The notes under the pieces were generated by a model that did no database searches, was not told the DNA's origin, and saw only the letters and a program-made list of their open reading frames with translations. From contig BJFU01000001.1 of NCBI GenBank assembly GCA_014190035.1, positions 14,135-78,134 on the forward strand: a stretch of 64,000 nt of DNA, in the 5' to 3' direction. The stretch's first letter is position 1, and each line of letters starts with the position of its first letter. Shown here in pieces: positions 14,283 to 49,431 of the stretch. The DNA comes from Actinomycetes bacterium (GTDB lineage: Bacteria; Actinomycetota; Actinomycetes; S36-B12; UBA5976). The position numbers were made by a program, and so were the translations under genes.

Positions 14283-14318
14283 GACTTAACGGTTTTACCT
14301 AAAAGGAGTTAAATTAAA

Positions 14319-15683: not shown

Positions 15684-15695
15684 GGAGAAAATATC

Positions 15696-16460: not shown

Positions 16461-16467
16461 AGAGAAA

Positions 16468-36626: not shown

Positions 36627-37442
36627 TTATCTTGTCCTTAATATTAGGAATTGGAAGCGGCCTTCCATAAAATATGTTTTGCTGTACATAAGTGGTTCTC
36701 CATCACCAGCGTAATGGACCTGTTGTAGAAGTAGAAACAAATCATTTGCTGGTCTTTCGTTCCCCCATCCAATTTCCTTACTAATCACTGCATCAACTTC
36801 TGCAAGTGCTCTAATCGGACGAGAATTAATTGTGTCAAGAGAAGCAAAAACACTTCCTCTTTTCATTTCTTCTACAACTTCTTCTGGAAGTGAACTTATG
36901 TTGATTGTGTCATAAGAAAACGCCACCGCTTTACCATCGGCTAGCACCGCTCTTTCTAAATACAAAACTGGATCAGCACGATCAAGTCCTAATTTATCAA
37001 TTTCTATTTCTGTTGCAGGTCTGATGGCTGCAACTTTGTATTCCATACCTGGTTCATAACCCAATTCACTAATTGTTTCTGACATGGAACGAAGTTCATT
37101 TAATCCAGTAGGAATTGATCGACCAAAATTATTAACATAAGTTCCAGAACCATGTCGAATATCAACTAAACCTTGGTATTCCAAAGTTTTTAAAGCAGTT
37201 CGAACTGTAACTCGAGAAACTTTGTAGGTGGTGGATAGCTCTGATTCACTATGGATTTTCTCTCCCGGAGCCCACTCTTTGGCCAAGATCCTTCTGCGGA
37301 TGTCATCGCTGATTCGACGAGTCAGGCTGGCTCGACCGCCAAACTGATTAGCCGGAGTGTTCACCGTGTGCTCACATTTCTTTTTCGTAACAGTTCTTCT
37401 AGGGGAGTTGACAAGCAAGACAATATCTAAGAGGCTATTCAA
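36627..37442 (-). CDS. GntR family transcriptional regulator, HutC subfamily (winged HTH plus UTRA effector domain)
   Basis: ESELSTTYKVSRVTVRTALKTLEYQGLVDIRHGSGTYV, followed by a UTRA-like C-terminal half. The start is ATG 37442 or GTG 37364. Confidence 0.85.
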   Translation of the reverse strand: MNSLLDIVLLVNSPRRTVTKKKCEHTVNTPANQFGGRASLTRRISDDIRRRILAKEWAPGEKIHSESELSTTYKVSRVTVRTALKTLEYQGLVDIRHGSGTYVNNFGRSIPTGLNELRSMSETISELGYEPGMEYKVAAIRPATEIEIDKLGLDRADPVLYLERAVLADGKAVAFSYDTINISSLPEEVVEEMKRGSVFASLDTINSRPIRALAEVDAVISKEIGWGNERPANDLFLLLQQVHYAGDGEPLMYSKTYFMEGRFQFLILRTR

Positions 37443-37445
37443 GAC

Positions 37446-37462
37446 TAGTTGTAGGACAACTA
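37446..37462. promoter_or_regulatory. 17-bp perfect palindrome, candidate GntR operator (site 1)
   Basis: TAGTTGTAGGACAACTA lies between gntR and mtnA. A 16-nt core, TTGTAGGACAACTATT, recurs at 48893..48908 on the minus strand. Confidence 0.6.
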
Positions 37463-37485
37463 TTGACTAACAATTAAGGGGCAGT

Positions 37486-38520
37486 TTGATGAGTGAAATC
37501 CGAGCCATTTCCTGGGTTAATGACGGGCTCATACTTATTGATCAAACTAAATTGCCTCATCAAGAAATCAATTTGAAAATTGAAACTGTAGATCAACTTG
37601 TTGACGCCATTATGAAATTAGCTGTGCGAGGAGCTCCAGCATTGGGAGCAGCAGGTGCATGGGGTGTAGTTGTGGCAATGCGCCAAGCAGAAAAAGAAAA
37701 GTGGAGTGAGCAAAAACGATCCGATGAATTTTTAAGAATTAGAAATGCCAGACCAACTGCAGTCAATTTAGCCTGGGGAGTGGACAAAGTTTTGCCATTT
37801 GTGGCGCAAGGAGTTAATGAAGTTTTAGCTCAAGCAAACAAAATTGCTTTAGAGGATGAAGCCGGCAATAGGCAAATGGGAAAGTTTGGTTCTAGTTGGA
37901 TTGAATCGAAAGTTAAAAATAGACCAATCAGAGCACTTACACATTGCAACACCGGATCTTTGGCAACAACTACTTGGGGTACAGCACTTGGTGTAATAAG
38001 AGAAATGAATTCTCGAGGAATTTTAAAACACGTGTTTGCAGATGAAACAAGACCATTATTACAGGGTGGTCGTTTAACAGCTTGGGAACTTGCGCATGAC
38101 AATATTGAACATTTTGTAATTGCAGACGGTGCTGCAACAAGCATTATTGCTCGCGGTGAAGTTGATGTGGCCCTTATTGGTGCAGACAGAGTTGCGGCAA
38201 ACGGTGATACTGCAAATAAAATTGGTTCATTTGCTGTTGCTCTAGCTTGTAAGTACGCAGGAATTCCTTTTGTTGTTGTTGCACCTGAATCAACAGTTGA
38301 TGTATCAACATTGACTGGAAAAGATATTGAAATTGAATATCGTGATGAAAATGAAATTCTTAGTTTAAATGGGCAAAGAATTTCTCCTGCAAAATCAAAA
38401 GGTTTAAATCCTGCATTTGATGTAACTCCAGCAGAATTGATATCTGCATTAGTTACCGAAAAAGGCGTTTATGAAATTTCAAATGGAGTAACGCCCGGTT
38501 CAATGTTAGCGAAAGCCTAA
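37486..38520 (+). CDS. mtnA: S-methyl-5-thioribose-1-phosphate isomerase family (MtnA/DrdI-like)
   Basis: LIDQTKLPH, VRGAPALG, ARPTAVNL, HCNTG (catalytic Cys), GADRVAANGDTANKIG (catalytic Asp) and NPAFDVTP. Confidence 0.9.
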   Translation: MMSEIRAISWVNDGLILIDQTKLPHQEINLKIETVDQLVDAIMKLAVRGAPALGAAGAWGVVVAMRQAEKEKWSEQKRSDEFLRIRNARPTAVNLAWGVDKVLPFVAQGVNEVLAQANKIALEDEAGNRQMGKFGSSWIESKVKNRPIRALTHCNTGSLATTTWGTALGVIREMNSRGILKHVFADETRPLLQGGRLTAWELAHDNIEHFVIADGAATSIIARGEVDVALIGADRVAANGDTANKIGSFAVALACKYAGIPFVVVAPESTVDVSTLTGKDIEIEYRDENEILSLNGQRISPAKSKGLNPAFDVTPAELISALVTEKGVYEISNGVTPGSMLAKA

Positions 38521-40512
38521 ATGTCAAATATTCCAACTCCACTAAAAGAATTAGTCGAAAGATCAAAATTCTTAGGCGTTAATCAAGATTTTGTTGTCTA
38601 TGGCGGAGGAAACACTTCGGCTAAAGGTGAAATTTCTGATCACTTCAATAGAACCAAAAACGTTTTATGGGTAAAAGGCTCTGGCGCAGACATGATGAAC
38701 GCAGAAGCTGCTGATTACCCAGCTTTGTACATGGACGAATTAATCCAAATTCTAAAGTTTGAAAAATTATCAGACGAAGAAATGACAGATCTAGTAAGTA
38801 GGGCTTTAGTTGACCCAGCAAGCAGAAGACCATCAATTGAGACTTTGCTGCACGCATTCTTGCCTTTTAAACATATTGATCATGTGCACGCAGATGCAAT
38901 TTGTGCATTAACAAATCATAAGAATGGCGAAAAGGCAGTTAAAGAAGCATTAGGTGACAAATTTGCATATGTTGATTGGATACGACCTGGTTTTGAATTA
39001 AGTAAGCAAGCCTCATTCTTAAAAGATGCTGAAGGCATAATTTTGGCACATCATGGACTTATTGTTTGGTCAGACAATAGTGATGAATGTAAGCAGAAAA
39101 ATCTTGATGTCATAAATAAAGTTGAAAAATATTTAAGTTCACTATCAAAGCGTCCTGAATCAGTATTTCAACACACAGATTACAGCGATGAAGAATATAA
39201 GAATCTTCTTTTACAGTTGCGTGGCAGACTAAATAAAAAAGGTAAGAAACTCTTAAGTCTTGATACAAGATTAAAAGAAATATCAAGCCGCAAAGATATT
39301 GATGAGATTTTAAGTGCTGGTGTATCAAGTGCCGATCATATGTTGAGAATTAAACCTTGGTCTGCAGTTCTTAACGAACCAAAAGATGGCGAGAAATCAA
39401 TTAAGGCCATTGATAACTTTGCTACTAAATATGAAAATTACTTTGAATCAAATAAAAATTTATTGCCTGCGGGCTATTCAATGAATGACTCTGACCCAAG
39501 AGTTGTCCTGGTACCAGATTTGGGAGCATTAACTACTGGTCATTCTCTGAATGAATGCAAAATGTATGCCGATATTTCTTACCACACTCATAAAACTGCT
39601 GCTATGGCGAAAGATTCCTTTGGAAATGTTGAAGGACTTCCAGATTCAGAAATTTTTGGTTTTGATTACTGGCCTATGGAACTTTATAAATTGGCAAGTA
39701 AACCAGCTCCAAAGAAATTTGCTGGAAATATTTTTATTGTTACCGGTGCAGCAAGTGGAATCGGATTAGGCATAACCCTTGAATTAGCCAAACTGGGAGC
39801 AAGTTTAGTTTTGGCAGATTTAGACGAAAAGGCATTAAATGCTGCTGCTGAAAAAATAAAGGAAGTTAAAGGCCTGAAACCAGAAATTATTGCAGGGGAT
39901 CAATCAGATGAGAAAGTTGTAAACAAAACAGTTGATTTAGCGATTAAGACTTTTGGTGGATTAGACGGTGTTGTCTTGAGTGCTGGTATTGCAGTAACTG
40001 ATCAACTCAAGGATTTGTCGGTAGATAAATGGAACAAAGGATTAGCAGTCAATTTAACAAGTGCATTCTTAATGACAAAGGCTGCAATGAATGCATTGAA
40101 AATTCAAAATTCAGGCGGATCCCTTGTTTATATTGCAAGTAAAAATGCTTTTGCTCCAGGTGCAGGTTTTGGTGGTTACTCAGTAAGTAAAGCTGGAATG
40201 TTGCAGCTTATGAGAATTGCCGCACTTGAAGGTGGAGCAAATCAAATTAGAGCTAATGCAATTAATCCTGATGCAATTTTTGATAACAGCAAACTCTGGG
40301 AAGGAGGAATCAGAGAAGAGAGAGCAAAAGCTCATGGCGTTAAGCCAGAAGAGTTAGAAGATTTTTATGCTCAAAGAAATATTTTGAAGTCACATGTAAC
40401 TTCTAAAGATGTAGCAAACACAACAGCTTTTCTTTTGTCTGACGAATCTGCCAGAACCACAGGCTCGGTCATCGCCGTCGACGGCGGGGTGGCTGCTGCA
40501 TTTCCGCGATAA
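38521..40512 (+). CDS. bifunctional class II aldolase/adducin-domain plus short-chain dehydrogenase fusion (YuxG/RhaEW-like)
   Basis: 663 aa. The N-terminal ~400 aa resemble the rhamnulose-1-phosphate aldolase/alcohol dehydrogenase family (GGGNTSAKG, HVHAD). The C-terminal SDR has VTGAASGIGLG and YSVSK motifs. Confidence 0.8.
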   Translation: MSNIPTPLKELVERSKFLGVNQDFVVYGGGNTSAKGEISDHFNRTKNVLWVKGSGADMMNAEAADYPALYMDELIQILKFEKLSDEEMTDLVSRALVDPASRRPSIETLLHAFLPFKHIDHVHADAICALTNHKNGEKAVKEALGDKFAYVDWIRPGFELSKQASFLKDAEGIILAHHGLIVWSDNSDECKQKNLDVINKVEKYLSSLSKRPESVFQHTDYSDEEYKNLLLQLRGRLNKKGKKLLSLDTRLKEISSRKDIDEILSAGVSSADHMLRIKPWSAVLNEPKDGEKSIKAIDNFATKYENYFESNKNLLPAGYSMNDSDPRVVLVPDLGALTTGHSLNECKMYADISYHTHKTAAMAKDSFGNVEGLPDSEIFGFDYWPMELYKLASKPAPKKFAGNIFIVTGAASGIGLGITLELAKLGASLVLADLDEKALNAAAEKIKEVKGLKPEIIAGDQSDEKVVNKTVDLAIKTFGGLDGVVLSAGIAVTDQLKDLSVDKWNKGLAVNLTSAFLMTKAAMNALKIQNSGGSLVYIASKNAFAPGAGFGGYSVSKAGMLQLMRIAALEGGANQIRANAINPDAIFDNSKLWEGGIREERAKAHGVKPEELEDFYAQRNILKSHVTSKDVANTTAFLLSDESARTTGSVIAVDGGVAAAFPR

Positions 40513-40529
40513 ACGGAAATGAGTAAGAG

Positions 40530-40553
40530 CAAGTGAATTAAGTAATTCACTTG
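40530..40553. repeat. 24-bp inverted repeat between the aldolase-SDR gene and the ABC binding-protein gene
   Basis: CAAGTGAATTA-AG-TAATTCACTTG, with 11-bp perfect arms. Confidence 0.7.
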
Positions 40554-40571
40554 TAAAAAGAAGGAGAAAGA

Positions 40572-41663
40572 ATGATTAAGAACAAAGCACTAGCTGGTAT
40601 TACAGTTGTTGCTGCGTTGCTTCTTGCTGCATGTTCCCAAGGAACTAGCGACACCGCTACAACTGCAGATGAAGGAACAGTTGCAGAAGCAACCGGTACC
40701 AAGCCAGCACCATTTGATGCTGGTCCGGTAAAGATTGCAATCGTACAAAACAGTGGCGCCGGTGACTATTTCCAACAATGGACAAACGGAGCTAACAAGC
40801 AAGCTGAAGCAATCGGATTTGAAGTTCAAATCTATGACGCCCAAGCTGACAATGCTAAGCAAGCAACTGACATGGAAACAGCAATTGGTTCAGGCGTAGC
40901 TGGAATCATTGTTGACCACGGTCAAGCAGACACCATGTGTCCATTGATCAACAAAGCACTTGACGCAGGAATTCCTGTTGTTGTGTACGACGTTGCAACC
41001 GCTGAATGTGCACCAAAAGCTGTTACAACACAACAAAGCGATGCTTCACTTGCACAAGCAGTGCTAGATCAAATGGCACTAGATCTTGGTAAAGATGCCA
41101 AAGTTGGATACGTAAACGTATTAGGTATCGCACCTTTGGATCGTCGTCACGTTGTATGGGAAGCAATTGTGAAAGCTAACAATTGGACCCAGTCCTTCTT
41201 CGTTGGTAAATTTACCAACTCAGTTGCAACTGATAATGCACAATTAGTTGACGCAGCTCTTAAGAAGAGTCCAGACGTAGTGGGTATTTTTGCTCCTTAC
41301 GATGAACTAACTAAGGGAACTGTTTCAGGAATTGAATCAAATAACCTTCAGGCTTCAATCAAGGCATACGGAATTGATATTTCAAATGCTGATATTGAAA
41401 TCATGACTAAAGAAGGTTCACCATGGGTAGCAACAGCAGGTACTGATCCAAACGCGATCGGTGCAGCAGTTGTTCGAAACATGGCACTTGAAATAGCAGG
41501 CCAATTGGGAGTTAAATCAGTTGATTTCCCAGGTGTTCTAATTACTGCACAGTTCCTAAAGGACAACGCAGTTAAGAACATGGTTGACTTGCGTGCCAAG
41601 TTGCCAGAATTGAACCTTGCATCTGTCAGCGGAGCTGACTGGATTCCTGCAGTTCAGTTCTAA
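40572..41663 (+). CDS. sugar ABC transporter substrate-binding lipoprotein (CUT2 / ribose-binding-protein-like)
   Basis: Lipobox LLLAAC, and a type I periplasmic binding fold profile (VKIAIVQNSGAGDYFQQW). Confidence 0.82.
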   Translation: MIKNKALAGITVVAALLLAACSQGTSDTATTADEGTVAEATGTKPAPFDAGPVKIAIVQNSGAGDYFQQWTNGANKQAEAIGFEVQIYDAQADNAKQATDMETAIGSGVAGIIVDHGQADTMCPLINKALDAGIPVVVYDVATAECAPKAVTTQQSDASLAQAVLDQMALDLGKDAKVGYVNVLGIAPLDRRHVVWEAIVKANNWTQSFFVGKFTNSVATDNAQLVDAALKKSPDVVGIFAPYDELTKGTVSGIESNNLQASIKAYGIDISNADIEIMTKEGSPWVATAGTDPNAIGAAVVRNMALEIAGQLGVKSVDFPGVLITAQFLKDNAVKNMVDLRAKLPELNLASVSGADWIPAVQF

Positions 41664-41688
41664 TTAATTAGTAGACGGAGGCGAGTTA

Positions 41689-43194
41689 ATGGTTTCAGCT
41701 GTTGAGGTTAGAAACATTTCAATGGCATTTGGCACAAACCAAGTGTTAAGTGGAGTGGATTTAACAATCGACAAAGGACAAACCACGGCATTGTTAGGAG
41801 CTAACGGTGCAGGTAAGTCCACATTAATTAAAATATTGTCCGGAGTTTATTCATCCTTTACCGGGGAAATATTGATTGATGGAAAAGCTGTAACTATTGA
41901 CTCGCCAACTACTGCGAAATTAGCAGGTATTGAAACTGTTCATCAAAGAATTGATGAGGGAGTAATTCCTGGTTTAACAGTTGCCGAAAATCTATTATTT
42001 GACAAAATCGTCTCAGGAGAAATTCCCAGAGGAGTTTCTTTAAAAACAATTGTGAATGAAGCAGAAAAAATTGCTGGAGCATTAGACCTTAATTGGAATA
42101 GATCCAAGCTACGAAATGACGTTTATGAATTAGGTATCGCTGAACAACAAATGCTGATACTAGCTAGAGCACTTTCTAGGTCCCCAAAACTTTTAATTTT
42201 AGATGAACCAACCTCTGCACTCTCAGTTGCTGAAAGCCAAAACTTATTTAGATTTATCAAGAATCTTGAAGAGCAAGGAATTGCTGTTTTGTACGTTTCC
42301 CACAAATTAAGTGAATTAGAACAAATTGCTAAGAAACTTGTGGTGATGCGAGATGGAAAAATTAGAAATGAACAAAGCACACCCTTTTCATGGGATCTGG
42401 CTTTGAAAGAAATGCTAGGACAACAAGAACTTGGAGAAAGAAATAACTTTAAACAAGTTCAGGGTACTGGTGTGATTCTGAAATTAAATAACGTTCAATT
42501 ATTTAAAGAAAGTGAACCACTGAATTTAGAAATAAAGAAAAAAGAAGTTACTGGAGTAATTGGTCTACTTGGTGCAGGTAAAACTGAGCTTGCAAAAGTA
42601 ATTTATGGAGCAGATGAACTAATTTCAGGTTCAATGGATCTTGAAGGCCAATCATATAAACCAGGACATCCTTCAGATGCGGTTAGAAAAGATATTTATT
42701 GAGTTCCAGAAGATCGTGCAGCAGAATCAATGATTCCAAATTGGAGCATTTCACACATTGCAACTTTACCTTTCATGGGAGATTTTTCAGTTCGCGGAAT
42801 AATTAAGAAAATTAAAGAGGGCATACGCGGCAAAGAACTTGTACAAGATCTAAAAGTTGTCACAACTTCTCATGAAGCAATTGTAGATTCCCTTTCAGGA
42901 GGAAATCAGCAAAAAGTTGTTGTAGGAAGATGGTTGCAATCAAATCCCAAACTAATGATTTTGGATGAACCATTTAGAGGTGTAGATATTGGAGCCAGAA
43001 GAGACATTTCTAAACGGGTTAGAGATTTAGCTGCCACTGATGTTGCAGTTTTGGTTTTAGCCTCAGATGTGGATGAAATTTTAGATGTTGCAGATCGAGT
43101 AATTGTGTTAGTTGAAGGAAAAGTTGTAATGGATGTAAATGCTGGGGAAACATCAAAGGACAAAATAGTTAACAAAATGTCGGAGGTGGCATAA
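41689..43194 (+). pseudogene. sugar ABC transporter ATP-binding protein (tandem NBD, CUT2 type) interrupted by an in-frame TGA at 42700-42702
   Basis: Track ORFs 41689..42702 and 42730..43194 share one frame, and the 27 nt between them read VPEDRAAES. NBD2 Walker A (GLLGAGKTE) is upstream of the stop; its signature LSGGNQQK and Walker B LMILDEP are downstream. It could also be annotated as two CDS. Confidence 0.6.
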
Positions 43195-44223
43195 ATGAGT
43201 ATCGGAAAAACAAGTGCAACAAATGGGTTTGACTTGAGAGACTTCATTGTCAAATACGGTTTTATCCTCGTGACAGTGATTCTATTTGTTTGGTTTGCGT
43301 CAACAGAACCTACTTTTAGAATGCAAAACACTTTGTTTTCAATGCTTAAATTCACATCTGTTGTGGCAATTACCGGCCTTGGTGTGACTTTAACAATGGT
43401 GGTGGGAGGACTTGATCTTTCTGTTGGCTCAATTGCAGGATTATCAGTAACTCTTTCTGCCATGACAATGGTTATTTATGCACAAACTGGAGCTATTGCT
43501 CTGGTAGTAGTACTACTAGGTGGAGTGCTAGTTGGACTATTTAATGCCTTTTTAATTGTGGTTTTAAAGATTCCAGATTTACTAGCAACGCTTGCAACGA
43601 TGTTTACGATTATGGGATTAAAACTTGTTCCAGTTGATGGCCAATCTGTTTCTTCAGGATTGATTTTAAGAGATGGAAGCGTTGCTCCGGGAAAATTCAC
43701 TCCAGGATTTTTACTTATTGATCGCGCCTACATTGGTCCAGTTCCTCTACCAGTTGCCATATTTTTCATATTGGCATTTGTAGTTTGGATTTTTTTAACA
43801 AAAACTAGATGGGGCAGAGTTATGTATGCAATTGGCTCAAACCCAGAAGCTGCAAGATTAGCGGGAGTTCGTGTTCAAAGATATAGAGCTCTTGCTTATG
43901 TTCTCTCAGGAGTTTTTGCTTCAATTGGTGGCTTAATTCTTTCTTCAAGAATTGGGCAAGGAGATATCAGTGCTGGAAACTCACTGTTACTAGATGCTGT
44001 TGCTGTTTCCTTGGTTGGAACTTCAGTGTTGGGTATGGCAAGACCAAACGCTTGGGGAACAACTCTTGGTGCAGTTTTAATAGGAATCGTGATTACTGGT
44101 TTAACCATTAAAGGGTTTCCTTATTACGCCCAAGATGTGGTTAAAGGACTTGTGTTATTAACTGCTTTGATATTCTCATTTACACTTTCTAGACGAAAGT
44201 CTAGATTTGTGCCGGCTGTCTAA
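43195..44223 (+). CDS. sugar ABC transporter permease (RbsC/BPD_transp_2 type)
   Basis: About 9-10 TM helices and the typical CUT2 permease profile. Begins immediately after the ATPase stop. Confidence 0.85.
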   Translation: MSIGKTSATNGFDLRDFIVKYGFILVTVILFVWFASTEPTFRMQNTLFSMLKFTSVVAITGLGVTLTMVVGGLDLSVGSIAGLSVTLSAMTMVIYAQTGAIALVVVLLGGVLVGLFNAFLIVVLKIPDLLATLATMFTIMGLKLVPVDGQSVSSGLILRDGSVAPGKFTPGFLLIDRAYIGPVPLPVAIFFILAFVVWIFLTKTRWGRVMYAIGSNPEAARLAGVRVQRYRALAYVLSGVFASIGGLILSSRIGQGDISAGNSLLLDAVAVSLVGTSVLGMARPNAWGTTLGAVLIGIVITGLTIKGFPYYAQDVVKGLVLLTALIFSFTLSRRKSRFVPAV

Positions 44224-44234
44224 AGGAAAAATAC

Positions 44235-45461
44235 ATGGCTGATCAATACGAATTCTTAACAAAAGACAACATCTCAGAATACTTATCAAGTAAAAAAGTA
44301 TTTGCTAATTTAATAGATGCTAACAACCTTGTGGAATTCAAAGAAGTTGGCGATGGAAATCTTAATTTAGTTTTCATCATGAAAGACTCTGCAGGCAAAG
44401 GAATAGTTTTGAAACAAGCTTTGCCATACGTGCGCTTAGTTGGACCTGATTGGCCGATGACACCTTCTAGAGCAAGAATCGAAGCCGAAACAACAATTAT
44501 TCATTCCAAATATGCAAATAATCTTGTTCCTGAAATTTATGATTATGACCCAGATCGTTTCATCATTGCAATGCAAGATTTATCTGATCACGTTGTTTGG
44601 CGAGGAGCGCTAAATTCAGGTTTAAGATTTGATGGAGTTGCAGGACCCCTAGGAAAATATGTGGCCAACACTGCTTTTGGTACGTCTATATTTAGCCTAG
44701 GACAAGAACAACATAAATTAGAAATTGCCAGAGCAATAAATCCAGGACTTTGCTTAATCACTGAAGACTTAGTTTTTACAGAGCCCTATTTTGAAAATGG
44801 CCGCAACTCAGTGCTCCCAACAAATGAAAAAGATGCTCAAGAATTAGCAAATGATAAAGACATGGTTCATGAAATTGGTTTATTGAAATATAAATTTATG
44901 ACAGCTGGTGAATCTCTAATTCACGGCGATCTTCACACAGGATCGGTCATGATCAAATGTGAAGATAAAAAGGTAGCTGTAAGTGTTAAAGCAATTGATT
45001 CTGAATTCTCATTTTATGGACCCATCGGCTTTGATTTAGGTGCTTTAGTAGCTAATTACACAATTGCAGCGGCAAGAGCTTGTGCATTAGGAAATATTGA
45101 ACAAATGCATTGGGCCTTAAGTCTTGCCGAACAAACTTGGGTTGAGTTTGAAAAAGAGTTTAGAAAACTTTGGCCAACAAGAGTTGACAAAAGAGTTTTC
45201 ACAGATGCATTTTTAGACGATTTAATTAAAACTTGGAGATCAGACACTCTGGGTTATGCAGGAGCAAAGATGGCTCGAAGAATTGTGGGACTTGCTAAAA
45301 CTTCAGATATTGAAACTCTAGAACCAAATGTGCGTGAAGGTGCTGCTCGAGCTGTATTACAGATTGCCAGAAAAACCACAAAAGAACGAGACCTTGCAAA
45401 ATCTTGGTCAACACTTGCTAAAGAAGCAGCTGAAATTATGCAGAAAACTGCCACAAAATAG
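44235..45461 (+). CDS. mtnK: S-methyl-5-thioribose kinase family (MtnK/DrdK-like)
   Basis: Close motif match to B. subtilis MtnK as recalled: EVGDGNLNLVF, KQALPYVR, RARIEAE, LIHGDLHTGS, DSEFSFYGPIGFDLG. Confidence 0.9.
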   Translation: MADQYEFLTKDNISEYLSSKKVFANLIDANNLVEFKEVGDGNLNLVFIMKDSAGKGIVLKQALPYVRLVGPDWPMTPSRARIEAETTIIHSKYANNLVPEIYDYDPDRFIIAMQDLSDHVVWRGALNSGLRFDGVAGPLGKYVANTAFGTSIFSLGQEQHKLEIARAINPGLCLITEDLVFTEPYFENGRNSVLPTNEKDAQELANDKDMVHEIGLLKYKFMTAGESLIHGDLHTGSVMIKCEDKKVAVSVKAIDSEFSFYGPIGFDLGALVANYTIAAARACALGNIEQMHWALSLAEQTWVEFEKEFRKLWPTRVDKRVFTDAFLDDLIKTWRSDTLGYAGAKMARRIVGLAKTSDIETLEPNVREGAARAVLQIARKTTKERDLAKSWSTLAKEAAEIMQKTATK

Positions 45462-45469
45462 GGGAATGT

Positions 45470-45829
45470 ATGAAGACACCTAGAGAAATTGCTGAGTCAT
45501 ATTGGAAAGCAGAATGCGCTAGAGATACCAAAGCTGTTTTAGAGCATTACCATCCTGATGCAACTTTTTGTCCTCCTGGACAAAAACTTGTTGGACACGA
45601 TCAAATCAGCACTTTTTATGATGCATCAGGAGAAGCATTTCCTGGCTTAAAAGTTGATATCTTACATGAAGTAAGAAATGGCGATGAAAGTTGTATTGAA
45701 TGGTACGCAACTTTGACTGACAAACAAGGAAATGTTTTTAACATTCCTGGAGTAAACGTAATTAAAATAAGAGATGGAAAATTTGAATCCGTTCATGCAT
45801 ACTTTGATCCAACAGTTTTAAACGGCTAG
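45470..45829 (+). CDS. NTF2-fold / SnoaL-like protein
   Basis: 119 aa with a SnoaL/ketosteroid-isomerase-like pattern (AESYWKAECARDTKAVLEHYHPDATF...IKIRDGKFESVHAYFD). Confidence 0.6.
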   Translation: MKTPREIAESYWKAECARDTKAVLEHYHPDATFCPPGQKLVGHDQISTFYDASGEAFPGLKVDILHEVRNGDESCIEWYATLTDKQGNVFNIPGVNVIKIRDGKFESVHAYFDPTVLNG

Positions 45830-46929
45830 TTTTCTAGACTTTCCACATAAGTTCTTAAACTTCTAGCATTATCTAAAAGATTACCTCGGTGAAGCGCTCC
45901 ACCAATTAATAAGAAAGTGTCTTTACCAAAAAAGTTTGCTATTTCTGGGATTCTTTCAATTGTCATTCCGCCCCCAGGTGAAGGAAAAATTGGCTTTATA
46001 TTTCCTAATTTAGCGCGACAGAAATCTGCAATTTTTGTACATTCCTCTTTGGAGAAACTAAATCTGCCTCCATAGTTAGGGAAAACACTTATGTCTGCAC
46101 CACTCAAACGCATCAAAGTTGCCAGTACTATTTCGTGATTTAGACCATAATTGCTGTTCATAAAGTGAGAACCTAAAGTCGAAGGATGACTCATTAAAGG
46201 TATAGAAACTTCTTCGTCGTCTGCAATCATGCGCATTGTGTCAAAACCAGAAACTCCAGGAAGAATCATTAATGCACCACTGCCTAATTTTCGAGCAGTA
46301 ATGGCACATTCTAAAATTTCTTCGGCCGGACGATTAATGCTGGGGGCATAAACAGATTTACGATTAAATTTTTGGTTTGCTTCTGCTACTGCACCTGCAA
46401 TAACTTTTACTCGTTCATTCCATTTAGCCCAAGGTTGATTTGCCAAACTGTGATCATCTTTTATTAAATCAATTCCTGCTTCAACCATCACTGTGGCAAT
46501 TTTGGCTAATTCAGCAGAACCTAAACCCATTGGTTTTAAAGCAGTAGCCAAGATAGGACGTTTCTTTGCTCCTAGTATTTCTCTTACCCCACTTATTCCA
46601 AAACGTGGTCCTTTAAAAGAGTTTAAAAAGTCTTCGGAAAAATCAATTTTTGTAACTCGTACATCTGGAAACATCGAAACATTTCCCCATACGACATTCA
46701 ACATCTGACCAATTTCATAGCCAGTGGTATCAGTGTTGTAGTCAATTACAACTTCTGTCTTAGAAATCCCAATTTCTTTTGAGGAAACAACTTGGCCGAC
46801 TACTTGTTCTTGGATCCATTTAGGAGCTAAATCAAAAGGAAATTCAATGGTTTGCTCAACTCTGATTGCTTCAGTTACTTCTTTGCTGGAATCAGATTTT
46901 AAATGATAGGTAATCTGAATTGACGACAT
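45826..46929 (-). CDS. RuBisCO-like protein (form IV large-subunit homolog), short and divergent
   Basis: Barrel motifs align to the RuBisCO large subunit: KRPILATALKPMGLG (compare GRPLLGCTIKPKLGL), GIDLIKDDHSLANQPW (compare GLDFTKDDENVNSQPF), SPGGG, LLIGGALH. Only 367 aa. Confidence 0.8.
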   Translation of the reverse strand: MSSIQITYHLKSDSSKEVTEAIRVEQTIEFPFDLAPKWIQEQVVGQVVSSKEIGISKTEVVIDYNTDTTGYEIGQMLNVVWGNVSMFPDVRVTKIDFSEDFLNSFKGPRFGISGVREILGAKKRPILATALKPMGLGSAELAKIATVMVEAGIDLIKDDHSLANQPWAKWNERVKVIAGAVAEANQKFNRKSVYAPSINRPAEEILECAITARKLGSGALMILPGVSGFDTMRMIADDEEVSIPLMSHPSTLGSHFMNSNYGLNHEIVLATLMRLSGADISVFPNYGGRFSFSKEECTKIADFCRAKLGNIKPIFPSPGGGMTIERIPEIANFFGKDTFLLIGGALHRGNLLDNARSLRTYVESLEN

Positions 46930-46934
46930 CTGAA

Positions 46935-47948
46935 CTACAACGCTTCAGCTTTTGCAGTGCTATGAACATCGATAACTCTAGTTTGAGAAAGCTCTTCTTC
47001 TGATATTTGCAAATTCTTATCCATAAGTTTTTCAGTTGCTTCAATGAGATTTCGTGCGCTCATTCCATATTTGTGAAGTAAATACTTTTGGGATGCTCCA
47101 TGAGCGTAAGTATCTTTCAAACCAATCTTGATTAGTTTCTTACCAATTCCGTGTTCTGCGATTAGATCAGCAACGGCACTTCCTAAACCACCAATCACGC
47201 TGTGGTTTTCCATGGTGATTACTCCATATTTACTTGACTTAAGGCTTTCAATTACTTGAGGATCGGTGAAAGGTTTCAAAGTTGAAATGTGAAGATGTTG
47301 CACACTCACACCGTGTTCCTTAAGTGCAGGAATCGCTCTTAAAGCTTCTTCGGTGGAAATTCCAGAACTTAAAATTGTTACATCCGTTCCTGTACTCAAA
47401 ACACGTGCTTTATTAAATTCCATAACTTCATTTTTTGGAAAAATTCTAGATATTTCTCCCCGAAGCATTCTTATATAAACTGGACCATTAATTTTGTGTG
47501 CCACCTCTAGCACAGATTCAACTTCTGTTGCATCGCCAGTTTCTAGGATTGTCATATTTGGTATTCCACGCATAACGTTCACGTCATCAATTGCTTGATG
47601 GGTTACGCCTCCTGGAGTTGTGATTCCAGGCAAAAAACCAACCATTCTCACGGGAAGATTTGGGTAAGCCACTGACATCTGAAGTTGATCAAGAGGTCTT
47701 CTATAAATAAAGACAGCAAAAGTATGAATCCAGGGCTCAAATCCTTCTCGAGCTAATCCGCTAGCAAAACCGAGCATGTTTTGCTCACCTAGGCCAAAAG
47801 AAAAGAATCTATCTGGGAAAGTATCTCTAAATTTGCCGACTTCGCAAGAACTGGTTAAGTCTGCTGATAAAACTACAACTTCTGGTTTGAATTTACTCCA
47901 TCTGACAAAGTTTTCAACGTGTGGTCTTTTAACTATTTCGTAAGCCAT
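46935..47948 (-). CDS. transketolase, C-terminal (pyrimidine-binding plus C-terminal domain) subunit
   Basis: Split-transketolase B-subunit profile (FFSFGLGEQNMLGFASGLA, GVTHQAIDD). Confidence 0.88.
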   Translation of the reverse strand: MAYEIVKRPHVENFVRWSKFKPEVVVLSADLTSSCEVGKFRDTFPDRFFSFGLGEQNMLGFASGLAREGFEPWIHTFAVFIYRRPLDQLQMSVAYPNLPVRMVGFLPGITTPGGVTHQAIDDVNVMRGIPNMTILETGDATEVESVLEVAHKINGPVYIRMLRGEISRIFPKNEVMEFNKARVLSTGTDVTILSSGISTEEALRAIPALKEHGVSVQHLHISTLKPFTDPQVIESLKSSKYGVITMENHSVIGGLGSAVADLIAEHGIGKKLIKIGLKDTYAHGASQKYLLHKYGMSARNLIEATEKLMDKNLQISEEELSQTRVIDVHSTAKAEAL

Positions 47949-47949
47949 T

Positions 47950-48870
47950 TTATTTCCATGCTTTCAAGAAATTGTTGTATTTGATTTTTTCAAAAGGGTT
48001 AGCAAATCTAACGTAGTGAAGTGCATCTGGTCTATCTTTTAATATTTCAATTCCCTTTGCAGGATCTGTATAACCAAGAATTACTTTAGGTTTATCTTTG
48101 GCAGAAAATCCAGATTGCAATATTTGATTTATATCGTTGCCATCAATCTTGTCAACATCCCAACCAAAACTTTTAATTCTGTCAATCAATGGTTCAATTG
48201 ACATAACTTTTTCCATTGGACCGTCTACTTGGTTTCTGTTTACATCAACAATTATTCGAATATTATTTAATTCATGAAAACTAATTGCAGATAATGCTTC
48301 CCAGGTTTGTCCTTCTTGAAATTCTCCATCTGACATAAATATCCAAGTTTTTCCTGATTCACCACGTAACTTTCTTGCTAAGGCAACTCCTCCAGCTTGT
48401 GAAATAGCTTGGGCCAGGGAACCTGTAGTTGTTTCAAATCCTGGGGAATGCTCAGCACCAATCATTTCTACAGTTGTGCCATCTTTATTAAATTTCTCTA
48501 ATGACTTTTCAGTTAATCTTCCTGTTTCGATTAGTGCTGCGTAAATAACTAATGCGTAATGAGCTGGGCTGATAAATAGACGATCTAAATCTGGACCTTT
48601 TTTGCCGTGAAATTCTGCACCTGTTATGTAGTCAGTGAAATTTTTACTGGGCACATTTACAAAATCACGTGGTTCTAAAGGTGCTGAAAGAGGGGAAAGG
48701 TTAACAAGATTTGTGTATAGGCAGGCAAGAATTTCGGCAGAGGAACAAGCTTGGCTTAAATAGCCACCATTGTTTTTAACGGTGTGCTCAAGAACTCGAT
48801 GACGAATTCCATGGGCGATAGAGGCGATTTTCTCTATATCCACCTGTGTATTTGACTTAGATATGCTCAT
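47950..48870 (-). CDS. transketolase, N-terminal (thiamine diphosphate-binding) subunit
   Basis: GGYLSQACSSAEIL and the ThDP motif FMSDGEFQEGQTWEA. Confidence 0.88.
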   Translation of the reverse strand: MSISKSNTQVDIEKIASIAHGIRHRVLEHTVKNNGGYLSQACSSAEILACLYTNLVNLSPLSAPLEPRDFVNVPSKNFTDYITGAEFHGKKGPDLDRLFISPAHYALVIYAALIETGRLTEKSLEKFNKDGTTVEMIGAEHSPGFETTTGSLAQAISQAGGVALARKLRGESGKTWIFMSDGEFQEGQTWEALSAISFHELNNIRIIVDVNRNQVDGPMEKVMSIEPLIDRIKSFGWDVDKIDGNDINQILQSGFSAKDKPKVILGYTDPAKGIEILKDRPDALHYVRFANPFEKIKYNNFLKAWK

Positions 48871-48894
48871 TTCGCTTCAGCATAGCAAAGAGAA

Positions 48895-48911
48895 TAGTTG
48901 TCCTACAAGTT
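48895..48911. promoter_or_regulatory. candidate GntR operator (site 2), overlapping a putative leaderless promoter of the transketolase-RLP operon
   Basis: TAGTTGTCCTACAAGTT matches 15 of 17 positions of the reverse complement of site 1. In gene sense the region reads TTGTAG, then 18 nt, then TATGCT, then 8 nt, then ATG, with no Shine-Dalgarno. Confidence 0.55.
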
Positions 48912-48925
48912 AAATTTAAAAGTAA

Positions 48926-48961
48926 AATGCCCTCGTAAGATTCACGAGGGCATTCTTTTTT
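48926..48961 (-). terminator. rho-independent terminator downstream of whiB (bidirectional in form)
   Basis: AATGCCCTCGT-AAGATTC-ACGAGGGCATT, flanked by CTTTTTT on the + side and a T-rich run on the minus side. Confidence 0.75.
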
Positions 48962-49287: not shown

Positions 49288-49431
49288 GTTTTTCCTTTGG
49301 TTGAAGCGATTGTTTTAACAATACGATATTGTTCATAACTTAGTCAATCATCCCCCCTGACTAATATTGTGAAGTCTCTCTCATGGGCATACGATTGGCC
49401 AAAGTTGTTCAACCGGGGGAGAATTGCCTTC

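What the first reader, a model, noticed from the sequence alone, without database searches (positions are those of the whole stretch)
36627..48925. Uncharacterised sugar salvage/catabolic cluster: MtnK + MtnA + aldolase-SDR fusion + CUT2 ABC importer + NTF2 protein + RuBisCO-like protein + split transketolase under a GntR regulator
SEEN: two convergent operons are bracketed by a HutC-type GntR gene. The + operon runs mtnA-like isomerase, class II aldolase-SDR fusion, sugar-binding lipoprotein, tandem-NBD ATPase, permease, mtnK-like kinase, NTF2/SnoaL. The minus operon runs transketolase-N, transketolase-C, RuBisCO-like protein. Both 5' ends carry the same 16-nt sequence.

ESTABLISHED:
- MtnK + MtnA + a class II aldolase make up the DHAP shunt / 5-deoxyribose disposal route (DrdK/DrdI/DrdA; Ald2). 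It yields DHAP plus acetaldehyde or 2-(methylthio)acetaldehyde.
- Bacillus methionine salvage uses MtnK, MtnA, MtnB, the RLP MtnW, MtnX and MtnD.
- The Rhodospirillum rubrum RLP isomerises methylthioribulose-1-P to 1-methylthio-xylulose-5-P.
- YuxG/RhaEW fusions cleave rhamnulose-1-P and oxidise the aldehyde product.

None of those published layouts, as far as I know, combines an importer, an aldolase-SDR fusion, an RLP and a split transketolase. No mtnB, mtnX, mtnD or cupin gene is present in the window.

INFERENCE: exogenous 5-methylthioribose or a 5-deoxypentose is imported, phosphorylated at C1 and isomerised to the ketose-1-P. One branch is aldol cleavage with built-in aldehyde redox chemistry. 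The other is RLP-catalysed rearrangement to a xylulose-5-P-like ketose that the transketolase cleaves to glyceraldehyde-3-P. Other rare sugars remain possible substrates.
Basis: partly seen in the sequence, partly recalled or inferred. Interest (0 to 1): 0.88.

Follow-up and report, generated by a model that had tools for sequence, protein, structure and literature searches.

The report
Methylthioribose salvage cluster with odd transketolase
A freshwater actinobacterium carries one co-regulated gene set that most likely imports and breaks down 5-methylthioribose or 5-deoxyribose (leftovers of S-adenosylmethionine chemistry), using a RuBisCO-like isomerase paired with an uncharacterised transketolase-like enzyme where known bacteria use a different partner.

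Summary
Window 36627-48925 carries a GntR/HutC regulator, MtnA, a class II aldolase-SDR fusion, a CUT2 ABC importer, MtnK and a SnoaL protein on the + strand. These converge on RLP, TK-C and TK-N on the - strand. An exact 16-mer operator lies about 22 nt upstream of both operons.

- The ATPase has an in-frame TGA. It is TTA in 97%-identical relatives.
- The layout is not a one-off. TK-N/TK-C/RLP, often with MtnK, MtnA and the ABC importer, recurs in most of 80 genome loci across several phyla, including cultured isolates.
- The "transketolase" is non-canonical. Four substrate-contacting residues are replaced invariantly.

The RLP is a sister clade of the characterised DeepYkr 5-methylthioribulose-1-P isomerases and keeps their signature residues. 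DeepYkr genes pair with a cupin; this clade pairs with the TK-like enzyme.

Best reading (inferred, no biochemistry): salvage of 5-methylthioribose/5-deoxyribose through a DHAP-shunt branch plus an RLP-to-ThDP-enzyme branch. No paper in the searchable library describes the RLP/TK pairing. I rate it a new variant of a known kind, interest about 0.7.

The parts
36627..37442 (-). GntR/HutC-type regulator (winged-helix HTH plus UTRA effector domain). The true start is probably downstream of the listed TTG.
   Evidence: Pfam GntR 66 bits and UTRA 53 bits. The L002 orthologue is 245 aa.
37449..37464 (+). Operator 1, TTGTAGGACAACTATT (core palindrome AGTTGT-AGG-ACAACT), 22 nt upstream of mtnA.
   Evidence: Conserved at the same position in L001, L002, L006, L018, L028, L038 and L039.
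37486..38520 (+). MtnA-type aldose-1-phosphate to ketose-1-phosphate isomerase.
   Evidence: TIGR00512 405.6 bits against cut-off 279; Pfam IF-2B.
38521..40512 (+). Class II aldolase domain fused to an SDR domain (YuxG/RhaEW-like architecture, below the rhamnulose equivalog cut-off).
   Evidence: Aldolase_II at residues 10-193 and adh_short_C2 at 409-657. TIGR02632 510.8 bits, below 567.75.
40572..41663 (+). Lipoprotein sugar-binding protein of a CUT2 ABC importer.
   Evidence: Peripla_BP_4 110 bits. LAAC lipobox. Best PDB hit 4ry8, 8.7e-53.
41689..43194 (+). Tandem-NBD ABC ATPase, interrupted by an in-frame TGA at 42700-42702.
   Evidence: The codon is TTA (Leu) in L002, L084 and L085, where the gene is an intact 501 aa.
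43195..44223 (+). ABC permease (BPD_transp_2, RbsC-like).
   Evidence: 138.9 bits.
44235..45461 (+). MtnK-type 5-methylthioribose/5-deoxyribose 1-kinase.
   Evidence: TIGR01767 390.8 bits against cut-off 275. The only PDB hits are the MTR kinases 2pyw and 2olc.
45470..45829 (+). SnoaL_2/NTF2-like protein of unknown role. Its 3' end overlaps the RLP 3' end by 4 nt.
   Evidence: Found between MtnK and TK/RLP in 9 related loci.
45826..46929 (-). RuBisCO-like protein, sister clade of the DeepYkr 5-methylthioribulose-1-P 1,3-isomerases.
46935..47948 (-). TK-like ThDP enzyme, pyrimidine-binding and C-terminal half.
   Evidence: Best PDB hit is the split transketolase 6yaj, 4.3e-62. The yeast His469 equivalent is Leu and Glu476-Asp477 is Pro-Gly, invariant in 49 sequences.
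47950..48870 (-). TK-like ThDP enzyme, pyrophosphate-binding (N-terminal) half.
   Evidence: Best PDB hit 6yak, 1.9e-36. The E. coli His26 equivalent is Tyr and His100 is Ile, invariant in 44 sequences. Mg ligands are kept.
48893..48908 (-). Operator 2, identical 16-mer, 23 nt upstream of the TK N-half gene.
   Evidence: Conserved upstream of TK-N in L002-L004, L006, L028, L029, L038 and L054.

Best explanation
This is one GntR/HutC-repressed regulon for using 5-substituted riboses, namely 5-methylthioribose and/or 5-deoxyribose. These are the sugar remnants of the SAM by-products MTA and 5'-deoxyadenosine.

Proposed sequence of steps:
1. The lipoprotein binding protein and CUT2 ABC transporter import the sugar. 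In this strain the ATPase carries a premature stop.
2. MtnK phosphorylates C1.
3. MtnA isomerises the product to the 5-substituted ribulose-1-phosphate.
4. Branch A is a DHAP-shunt variant. The class II aldolase domain cleaves the ketose-1-phosphate to DHAP plus 2-(methylthio)acetaldehyde or acetaldehyde. The fused SDR domain then oxidises or reduces that aldehyde.
5. Branch B starts with the RLP, a DeepYkr-type 1,3-isomerase, which converts the same ketose-1-phosphate to 1-methylthio- or 1-deoxy-xylulose-5-phosphate.
6. The dedicated TK-like ThDP enzyme, translationally coupled to the RLP, then cleaves the C2-C3 bond to give glyceraldehyde-3-phosphate plus a ThDP-bound C2 unit. Here it takes the place that the cupin methylsulfurylase holds in Rhodospirillum and Rhodopseudomonas.

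Shown by computation: gene identities, the shared operator, co-conservation, the RLP signature, and the remodelled TK active site.

Inferred: the substrate identity, the order of steps, and all of the chemistry.
For: - MtnK and MtnA exceed NCBIfam equivalog cut-offs. The only PDB relatives of MtnK are MTR kinases.
- The binding protein's best PDB relative is 4ry8 at 8.7e-53. I recall this entry as a 5-methylthioribose complex, but that is my own memory and could not be verified here.
- The RLP aligns over its full length with R. palustris RLP1 (3qfw, 8.2e-65). PMC5893883 shows RLP1 to be a 5-methylthioribulose-1-P 1,3-isomerase.
- The window clade and the DeepYkr clade share 54 columns conserved at 95% or more. 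Of these, 25 differ from YkrW, and there are only 3 fixed differences between the two clades.
- DeepYkr genes overlap a Cupin_2 gene and have no TK nearby. In the window clade, TK-N/TK-C sit directly upstream of the RLP in 44 of 59 loci with enough flank, and no cupin family is present.
- MtnA occurs in 47 of the 81 loci analysed (80 genome loci plus the window), the aldolase-SDR fusion in 45, MtnK in 27 and the ABC ATPase in 30.
- Rhodoglobus vestalii has GntR, MtnA, MtnK, binding protein, ATPase, permease, a stand-alone class II aldolase, TK-N, TK-C and RLP together.
- The operator TTGTAGGAC(A/G)ACT is conserved upstream of both operons in genomes whose proteins are only about 50-60% identical.
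- TK residues that contact the donor C1-OH are replaced by Ile and Tyr, while the ThDP/Mg machinery and the distal Arg and Ser phosphate ligands are kept. This fits a donor whose C1 carries S-methyl or H and whose far end carries a phosphate. The residue roles come from the published yeast and E. coli transketolase structures, recalled from memory.
Against: - There is no biochemical or genetic evidence for any step.
- The TK-like enzyme also lacks the Asp that binds the donor C4-OH and one phosphate-binding His. That is not predicted for a xylulose-5-P-like substrate.
- Twelve Planktophila loci keep MtnA, the aldolase-SDR fusion and the RLP but have no TK or MtnK within 10 kb. The RLP is therefore not strictly dependent on the TK.
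- Some loci carry both a small class II aldolase and the aldolase-SDR fusion (L034). Others carry a second MtnA paralogue, a DeoC/LacD aldolase and RbsD/FucU (L072 and L073). The real pathway may have more steps or a different substrate.
- If both branches end in triose phosphate plus a C2 unit, they look redundant.
- The aldolase-SDR fusion is of the rhamnulose-type family, not the Ald2/DrdA type.
Confidence: 0.6

Rival explanations
1. The machinery is the same but the sugar is different. The MtnK-like, MtnA-like, RLP and TK-like proteins would act on another imported rare pentose or deoxy-sugar (for example a different 5-modified pentose or a 6-deoxyhexofuranose) and not on SAM-derived sugars.
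For: - Variant loci add RbsD/FucU mutarotase-type proteins, a DeoC/LacD aldolase and a second MtnA paralogue.
- The aldolase-SDR fusion belongs to the family used for rhamnulose-1-P.
- The TK-like enzyme lacks the Asp that reads the D-threo C4-OH.
- HMM equivalog cut-offs do not prove specificity.
Against: - MtnK and MtnA score well above the cut-offs trained on MTR enzymes.
- The RLP keeps the full DeepYkr signature.
- The binding protein's closest solved relative is 4ry8, not a ribose, xylose or rhamnose binder.
- No rhamnose or fucose isomerase or kinase gene is in the window.
Confidence: 0.15
2. The pathway is linear and not branched. The class II aldolase-like domain would act as an MtnB-like dehydratase or an epimerase, and the SDR would reduce a keto intermediate. 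The RLP and the TK-like enzyme would then process that product, giving a new methionine-salvage-like route.
For: - The class II aldolase fold also houses MtnB dehydratase and AraD epimerase (established knowledge).
- MtnA, the aldolase-SDR fusion and the RLP are contiguous in 12 Planktophila loci without a TK.
- ThDP enzymes can cleave vicinal diketones.
- The altered TK pocket fits a substrate that is not xylulose-like.
Against: - The RLP lacks the YkrW enolase signature: it has KDDH, not KDDE, and Asn where YkrW has the catalytic Lys.
- The fusion scores 510-565 bits against bifunctional aldolase/SDR models.
- In Rhodoglobus a small Ald2-sized class II aldolase replaces the fusion, as expected for a DHAP-shunt aldolase.
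Confidence: 0.12
3. The RLP/TK-like module is anabolic. It would channel 5-deoxyribose or MTR carbon into 1-deoxy-xylulose-5-phosphate for isoprenoid, thiamine and pyridoxal synthesis, with the TK-like enzyme working as a DXS-like carboligase or transferase and not as a cleaving enzyme.
For: - In the DeepYkr system the end product is DXP (PMC5893883).
- The RLP acting on 5-deoxyribulose-1-P would give DXP directly (chemical inference).
- The TK halves hit DXS models and structures: TIGR00204 3.7e-45 and 8a29 1.6e-30. NCBI labels relatives as "DXP synthase N-terminal domain-containing".
Against: - The best matches are split transketolases, not DXS.
- Co-regulation with an importer and a catabolic aldolase under a sugar-type repressor suggests catabolism.
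- If the RLP made DXP directly, no further enzyme would be needed.
Confidence: 0.08
4. The two operons are merely neighbours and are functionally unrelated.
For: They are on opposite strands and are not one transcript.
Against: - The identical 16-mer operator precedes both.
- The motif is conserved before both operons in distant genomes.
- In other genomes all the genes form one colinear operon (L024, L030, L043, L070).
Confidence: 0.02

Closest known systems
MTA-isoprenoid shunt of Rhodospirillum rubrum and Rhodopseudomonas palustris (MtnP, MtnA, DeepYkr RLP, cupin methylsulfurylase)
   Same: MtnA is followed by an RLP with the same conserved catalytic signature: ALKPxG, DLIKDDH, FPNYGGRF. 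The RLP gene is translationally coupled to the presumed next enzyme.
   Different: - The RLP is a sister clade, about 37% identical to DeepYkr.
- The partner is a split TK-like ThDP enzyme, not a Cupin_2 protein (against 19, 35).
- Entry is by import plus MtnK, not by MtnP.
- The hosts are mostly Actinomycetota and Chloroflexota, not Alphaproteobacteria.
DHAP shunt / 5-deoxyribose disposal (MtnK-MtnA-Ald2 in E. coli ExPEC and R. rubrum; DrdK-DrdI-DrdA in Bacillus thuringiensis)
   Same: Kinase, isomerase and class II aldolase logic. The sugars can serve as growth substrates (PMC6079011, PMC12632272). Variant loci use a SorC/DeoR-type regulator like E. coli MtnR.
   Different: - The aldolase is fused to an SDR.
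- A dedicated ABC importer is present.
- An RLP/TK-like branch is co-regulated with the shunt.
- The regulator here is GntR/HutC.
RhaEW/YuxG bifunctional rhamnulose-1-P aldolase / lactaldehyde dehydrogenase
   Same: Same two-domain architecture and family.
   Different: It scores below the TIGR02632 cut-off (510.8 against 567.75). The context has no rhamnose genes and has MtnK and MtnA in their place.
Bacillus methionine salvage RLP MtnW (YkrW clade enolase)
   Same: RLP fold. It shares the SxxYG loop that 3qfw lacks. MtnK and MtnA lie upstream.
   Different: It has KDDH, not KDDE, and Asn where YkrW has the catalytic Lys. NF007095 scores 211.6 bits against 409. No mtnB, mtnX or mtnD gene is present.
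Split transketolase (Carboxydothermus hydrogenoformans, PDB 6YAJ/6YAK) and sugar-pathway split transketolases
   Same: Two-subunit TK fold, the ThDP/Mg motifs, the cofactor Glu, and the E. coli His66, His261, His473 and Arg520 equivalents.
   Different: The E. coli His26, His100, His461 and Asp469 equivalents are Tyr, Ile, Leu and Gly, invariant across phyla. There is also an insertion of roughly 20-35 residues after the first helix.
Phosphoketolase (mechanistic analogue only)
   Same: After C2-C3 cleavage, a ThDP-bound enamine with a beta leaving group can eliminate it to give acetyl-ThDP. This is established phosphoketolase chemistry.
   Different: No close sequence relationship was found, and the leaving group would be methanethiolate, not hydroxide. 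This is purely a hypothesis here.

Membership tests
DHAP shunt (MtnK-MtnA-Ald2 / DrdK-DrdI-DrdA) | 5-methylthioribose/5-deoxyribose 1-kinase | tested here: met
   TIGR01767 390.8 bits against cut-off 275. PDB hits 2pyw and 2olc only. Activity was not testable.
DHAP shunt (MtnK-MtnA-Ald2 / DrdK-DrdI-DrdA) | Aldose-1-P to ketose-1-P isomerase of the MtnA/DrdI type | tested here: met
   TIGR00512 405.6 bits against cut-off 279.
DHAP shunt (MtnK-MtnA-Ald2 / DrdK-DrdI-DrdA) | Class II aldolase that cleaves the ketose-1-P to DHAP plus an aldehyde | tested here: inconclusive
   An Aldolase_II domain is present (60 bits), but inside a YuxG-type fusion and not as an Ald2/DrdA-size protein. A 211-aa stand-alone aldolase takes this place in Rhodoglobus.
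MTA-isoprenoid shunt (DeepYkr RLP + cupin) | RLP with the DeepYkr catalytic signature | tested here: met
   54 shared conserved columns, 25 of them absent from YkrW, and only 3 fixed differences. Full-length alignment to 3qfw.
MTA-isoprenoid shunt (DeepYkr RLP + cupin) | RLP falls inside the DeepYkr clade | tested here: inconclusive
   In a neighbour-joining tree of 122 sequences the two groups are reciprocally monophyletic sisters, about 37% identical between groups. Only YkrW was used as outgroup, and sampling came from the top hits of two searches.
MTA-isoprenoid shunt (DeepYkr RLP + cupin) | Adjacent Cupin_2 methylsulfurylase gene | tested here: not met
   Present next to the R. palustris and Rhodomicrobium RLPs. 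Not detected in the window ORFs scanned, nor among the annotated families recurring in the 80 loci.
YkrW/MtnW enolase route (Bacillus methionine salvage) | YkrW active-site signature and equivalog score | tested here: not met
   KDDH, not KDDE; Asn83, not Lys. NF007095 211.6 bits against 409 and TIGR03332 150.3 against 513.6.
YkrW/MtnW enolase route (Bacillus methionine salvage) | mtnB, mtnX and mtnD in the neighbourhood | tested here: not met
   None among the window ORFs scanned.
RhaEW/YuxG rhamnulose-1-P aldolase / lactaldehyde dehydrogenase | Equivalog-level match and rhamnose gene context | tested here: not met
   The architecture is met, but TIGR02632 scores 510.8 bits, below 567.75. No rhaA or rhaB was found in the window.
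Canonical transketolase (EC 2.2.1.1), split form | ThDP/Mg2+ binding motif and cofactor-activating Glu | tested here: met
   GDG...N and Glu are invariant.
Canonical transketolase (EC 2.2.1.1), split form | Substrate-contacting His26, His100, His461 and Asp469 (E. coli numbering) | tested here: not met
   Tyr, Ile, Leu and Gly, invariant in 44 to 49 family members, whereas the 6yak/6yaj, human and DXS sequences differ. NF004559 scores 153 and 194 bits against a cut-off of 488.
Apiose-pathway RLPs (OiaX/OiaT) | Equivalog-level match | tested here: not met
   NF042437 92.1 bits against 700.
CUT2 sugar ABC importer | Peripla_BP_4 binding protein, tandem-NBD ATPase, BPD_transp_2 permease, all intact | tested here: not met
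   All three components are present, but the ATPase has an in-frame TGA at 42700-42702.
GntR family, HutC subfamily | GntR winged-helix domain plus UTRA effector domain | tested here: met
   A palindromic operator lies before both operons.

The most novel reading that the evidence does not exclude
The TK-like pair would be a new kind of ThDP enzyme. It would cleave 1-methylthio-xylulose-5-phosphate to glyceraldehyde-3-phosphate. Because the ThDP-bound fragment then carries a thiolate leaving group, it would eliminate methanethiol in a phosphoketolase-like way to give acetyl-ThDP, which ends as acetate or acetyl-phosphate.

That would be a thiol-cofactor-independent replacement for the glutathione-dependent cupin. 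It would let sulfate-assimilation-deficient freshwater Actinobacteria (acI/Nanopelagicales) obtain both reduced sulfur and carbon from dissolved 5-methylthioribose.
Probability: 0.2. Interest if true: 0.9.

Novelty: new variant of a known kind. Interest (0 to 1): 0.7.

Why it matters
Salvage of the SAM by-products MTA and 5'-deoxyadenosine is known through the universal methionine salvage pathway, the DHAP shunt and the RLP/cupin isoprenoid shunt. This module would add a fourth downstream solution, an RLP isomerase coupled to a dedicated, remodelled ThDP enzyme. It is not rare. It recurs in most of 80 genome loci examined, spanning Actinomycetota, Chloroflexota, Acidobacteriota, Planctomycetota, Verrucomicrobiota and Gemmatimonadota, and in hundreds of metagenome protein clusters.

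It is carried by acI/Nanopelagicales, the most abundant freshwater bacterioplankton. These bacteria lack assimilatory sulfate reduction and need reduced sulfur (PMC5301498, PMC12817590). An importer-linked methylthioribose route is therefore ecologically relevant.

The work also gives an unassigned RLP clade and an unassigned transketolase subfamily a concrete, testable substrate hypothesis. Cultured carriers are available for the experiments: Rhodoglobus vestalii, Georgenia sp. H159 and Enemella sp. A6.

Tried and rejected
- **Literature.** Six full-text searches combining RLP, transketolase, MTR, methylthioxylulose, methylthioribulose, MtnK and MtnA found nothing relevant. Erb 2012 and Warlick 2012 are not held, so prior mention in closed-access papers or in the Warlick thesis cannot be excluded.
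- **4RY8 ligand.** I tried to confirm my recollection that PDB 4RY8 is a 5-methylthioribose complex. The text search found nothing. A single-sequence AlphaFold model of the binding protein was too poor for a fold search (pLDDT 43.7).
- **Riboswitches.** An Rfam scan of the window found only a tRNA and no SAM or other riboswitch.
- **Promoters and terminators.** The consensus scan found no enrichment and no promoter at either operator. The only clear terminator is the bidirectional one at 48924-48956 after whiB.
- **Rejected readings.** A YkrW enolase function, apiose-pathway RLPs, a canonical pentose-phosphate transketolase, and unrelated neighbouring operons were all rejected. The reasons are given in the membership tests and rival explanations.
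- **Rhodoglobus operator.** The window operator motif is not conserved in the Rhodoglobus locus. That GntR presumably recognises a diverged site.
- **Other pathway genes.** I looked for mtnN, mtnP and metY in the window and found none.

Full report
**Observation.**
- The + operon runs from 37486 to 45829: MtnA, class II aldolase-SDR fusion, Peripla_BP_4 lipoprotein, tandem-NBD ATPase, BPD_transp_2 permease, MtnK, SnoaL_2.
- The - operon runs from 48870 down to 45826: TK N-half, TK C-half, RLP.
- The two 3' ends overlap by 4 nt.
- A GntR+UTRA (HutC-type) gene at 36627-37442 is divergent from the + operon.
- The 16-mer TTGTAGGACAACTATT occurs exactly twice in 64 kb, at 37449-37464 (+) and 48893-48908 (-), each about 22 nt upstream of the first gene of an operon. 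Its core is the palindrome AGTTGT-AGG-ACAACT.
- The flanks are housekeeping genes: glmS, alr, tsaD, groEL and copC on one side; whiB, merR, luxR, an IMPDH-like gene and pcrA on the other.

**One correction.** The ATPase contains an in-frame TGA at 42700-42702. Metagenome contigs 97% identical over the cluster, and locus L002, have TTA (Leu) there and an intact 501-aa gene. In this genome the importer is either freshly inactivated or the base is a sequencing error.

**Organism.** The closest RLP and TK homologues come from freshwater metagenomes and Candidatus Nanopelagicales/Planktophila genomes. The 37-42% G+C and the whiB neighbour fit an acI actinobacterium.

**Gene identities.**
- MtnA scores 405.6 bits against TIGR00512 (cut-off 279), and MtnK 390.8 bits against TIGR01767 (cut-off 275).
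- The only solved relatives of MtnK are the Arabidopsis and Bacillus MTR kinases.
- The binding protein's best solved relative is 4ry8 (8.7e-53), far ahead of ribose binders at about 1e-10. I recall 4RY8 as a Thermotoga lettingae binding protein crystallised with 5-methylthioribose. I could not verify this here, so it is a lead only.
- The aldolase-SDR fusion belongs to the bifunctional aldolase/SDR family but is below the rhamnulose-1-P equivalog cut-off (510.8 against 567.75).
- The RLP passes no NCBIfam cut-off: MtnW 211.6 against 409, OiaX 92 against 700.

**One regulon.** The operator motif TTGTAGGAC(A/G)ACT is found about 16-27 nt upstream of both the TK N-half gene and the mtnA/gntR divergent region. 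This holds in L002, L006, L028, L029, L038 and L054. It is found at one of the two positions in L001, L003, L004, L018 and L039, where only one end is present on the contig. Proteins in several of these loci are only 50-60% identical to the window's. In other genomes all the genes form one colinear operon (L024, L030, L043, L070). The two operons are therefore functionally linked. No riboswitch is present.

**Comparative genomics.** A genome scan with an RLP alignment returned at least 587 candidate loci. One of the two search patterns also matches DeepYkr RLPs, so this is an upper bound. The best 80 loci, 43-95% identical, were analysed.
- tblastn with the window proteins and all-against-all clustering of ORFs give these family counts per 81 loci (80 genome loci plus the window): RLP 81, TK-C 54, MtnA 47, aldolase-SDR 45, TK-N 45, ABC ATPase 30, MtnK 27, permease 25, binding protein 15.
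- Less frequent families are a FUSC/ArAE exporter 16, a SorC regulator 14, a DeoC/LacD aldolase 12, GntR 10, a Zn-ADH 10, SnoaL 9 and RbsD/FucU 9 (Pfam).
- Of 59 loci with at least 2.3 kb upstream of the RLP, 44 have TK-N/TK-C directly upstream on the same strand. This is 42 by ORF calling plus L027 and L049 by tblastn.
- The hosts span Nanopelagicales, Microbacteriaceae, Georgenia, Enemella, Nocardioidaceae, Acidimicrobiia, Anaerolineae/Thermoflexales, Acidobacteriota, Udaeobacter, Pirellulaceae, Gemmatimonadales and others.
- A bare TK-N/TK-C/RLP triad occurs in L060, L064 and L069.
- Twelve Planktophila loci have MtnA, aldolase-SDR and RLP with no TK or MtnK. They look like a deletion derivative of the L024-type operon.
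- The cultured Rhodoglobus vestalii has GntR, MtnA, MtnK, binding protein, ATPase and permease, then SorC and a 211-aa stand-alone class II aldolase, then TK-N, TK-C and RLP.

**RLP classification.**
- The best solved relative is 3qfw (8.2e-65), aligned over the full length. Its sequence is 100% identical to a Rhodopseudomonas palustris protein (P0121).
- R. palustris RLP1 is a DeepYkr RLP shown in vivo and in vitro to be a 5-methylthioribulose-1-P 1,3-isomerase (PMC5893883).
- In a neighbour-joining tree of 89 window-type, 30 DeepYkr and 3 YkrW sequences, the window type and DeepYkr are reciprocally monophyletic sisters. Median identity is 51% within the window type, 60% within DeepYkr and 37% between them.
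- The two clades share 54 columns conserved at 95% or more. Twenty-five of these differ from YkrW: Asn where YkrW has its catalytic Lys, KDDH where YkrW has KDDE, the FPNYGGRF loop, and Arg326. Only three differences are fixed between the clades.
- The RLP therefore very probably catalyses the same or a closely related isomerisation.
- Limitation: other form-IV clades were not included, and sampling came from the top hits of two searches.

**Partner swap.** DeepYkr RLP genes in R. palustris and Rhodomicrobium vannielii overlap a Cupin_2 gene and have no transketolase nearby. This matches the published RLP/cupin methylsulfurylase pair. In the window clade there is no cupin family, and the tightly packed upstream partner is the split TK-like enzyme. 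The gaps in the window are 1 and 5 nt. This is the strongest argument that the TK-like enzyme handles the RLP product.

**The transketolase is not canonical.** I aligned 44 N-halves and 49 C-halves from the loci with the Carboxydothermus split transketolase (6yak/6yaj), human transketolase and a DXS.
- Conserved: the ThDP/Mg motif, the cofactor Glu, the E. coli His66, His261 and His473 equivalents, Arg520 and Ser385.
- Replaced invariantly: His26 to Tyr (NNGGY[LM]SQACS), His100 to Ile (VE-MIGAEHSPG), His461 to Leu, and Glu-Asp469 to Pro-Gly (GFLPGITTPGGVTHQ).
- From the published yeast and E. coli structures (recalled from memory), His100 contacts the donor C1-OH, His26 the C3-OH, Asp469 the C4-OH and His461 the phosphate.
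- A hydrophobic residue at the C1 position fits a donor whose C1 bears S-methyl or H. The loss of the Asp and of one phosphate ligand is not explained.
- The C-half is 60-72% identical across phyla, more conserved than the RLP. This implies one specific conserved function.
- NCBI and JGI names for relatives are generic: "transketolase", "DXP synthase N-terminal domain-containing", "thiamine pyrophosphate-dependent enzyme".

**Mechanism proposed.**
1. Import.
2. C1 phosphorylation by MtnK.
3. Isomerisation by MtnA.
4. A DHAP-shunt branch through the aldolase-SDR fusion.
5. An RLP branch to 1-methylthio- or 1-deoxy-xylulose-5-P.
6. ThDP-dependent C2-C3 cleavage to G3P.

For the methylthio substrate, the ThDP-bound fragment carries a beta thiolate leaving group. 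Elimination of methanethiol to acetyl-ThDP, as in phosphoketolase, is then chemically expected. This is my inference and is untested. It would supply reduced sulfur without glutathione. That is attractive because acI bacteria lack assimilatory sulfate reduction and need reduced sulfur (PMC5301498; PMC12817590). No metY, mtnN or mtnP gene is in the window.

**Novelty.** The components and the upstream logic are known from the DHAP shunt (PMC6079011, PMC12632272) and the MTA-isoprenoid shunt (PMC5893883). The RLP clade, its coupling to a remodelled split TK-like enzyme, and the combination with an importer and an aldolase-SDR fusion were not found in any paper of the searchable library. Closed-access papers and theses could not be checked. 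I rate it a new variant of a known kind.

**What remains unexplained.**
- The role of the SnoaL protein.
- The apparent redundancy of the two branches.
- The TK-less Planktophila variant.
- The extra MtnA paralogue, DeoC/LacD aldolase and RbsD/FucU in Acidimicrobiia-type loci.
- The missing Asp and His in the TK pocket.

Noticed in passing
window 42700-42702: There is an in-frame TGA in the ABC ATPase gene. The codon is TTA (Leu) in contigs 97% identical and in L002. It is either a recent nonsense mutation or a base-call error, and the second nucleotide-binding domain would be split.
   Followed up: yes
window 12900-18910: A gamma-glutamylation-type polyamine utilisation set is present: a glutamine-synthetase-like protein 12900-14282, an aldehyde dehydrogenase 14319-15683, an SDR 15696-16460 and a Peptidase_C26 18224-18910. 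It is interleaved with a pseudouridine catabolism pair: a PfkB kinase 16468-17331 and an Indigoidine_A/pseudouridine-5'-phosphate glycosidase 17331-18236.
   Followed up: no
L007, L009, L011, L012, L014, L016, L019, L020, L022, L023, L026, L035: This Planktophila variant has an amino-acid-type ABC transporter, then MtnA, aldolase-SDR, RLP, a FUSC/ArAE exporter and a Zn-ADH. It has no TK, MtnK or sugar importer. It looks like an internal deletion of the L024-type colinear operon.
   Followed up: partly
L049, L072, L073, L067 (Acidimicrobiia-type loci): An extended variant carries a second MtnA paralogue, a divergent aldolase-SDR (about 30% identical), a DeoC/LacD-family aldolase, a SorC regulator and RbsD/FucU next to MtnK, MtnA, TK-N, TK-C and RLP. 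This hints at additional steps or a broader substrate range.
   Followed up: partly
L001, L016; L006, L028, L054: Several record titles look taxonomically wrong. Contigs labelled 'Bifidobacterium breve' MAG are 95% and 52% identical to this acI RLP. 'Rubrivirga' MAG contigs carry the same actinobacterial GntR operator and gene order. This suggests mislabelling or mis-binning.
   Followed up: no
window 49369-50424: A MerR-family regulator of 351 aa lies next to whiB. The orthologue in L086 has a faint B12-binding_2 hit, which suggests a LitR/CarH-like light-responsive regulator.
   Followed up: no
window 48924-48956: A strong bidirectional terminator-like hairpin (15 pairs) lies between whiB and the TK operon's operator, marking the cluster boundary.
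   Followed up: no
L083 9251-9886: Rhodoglobus vestalii has a stand-alone 211-aa class II aldolase, divergent from TK-N, in place of the aldolase-SDR fusion. L034 carries both a small aldolase and the fusion, so the two may not be equivalent.
   Followed up: partly
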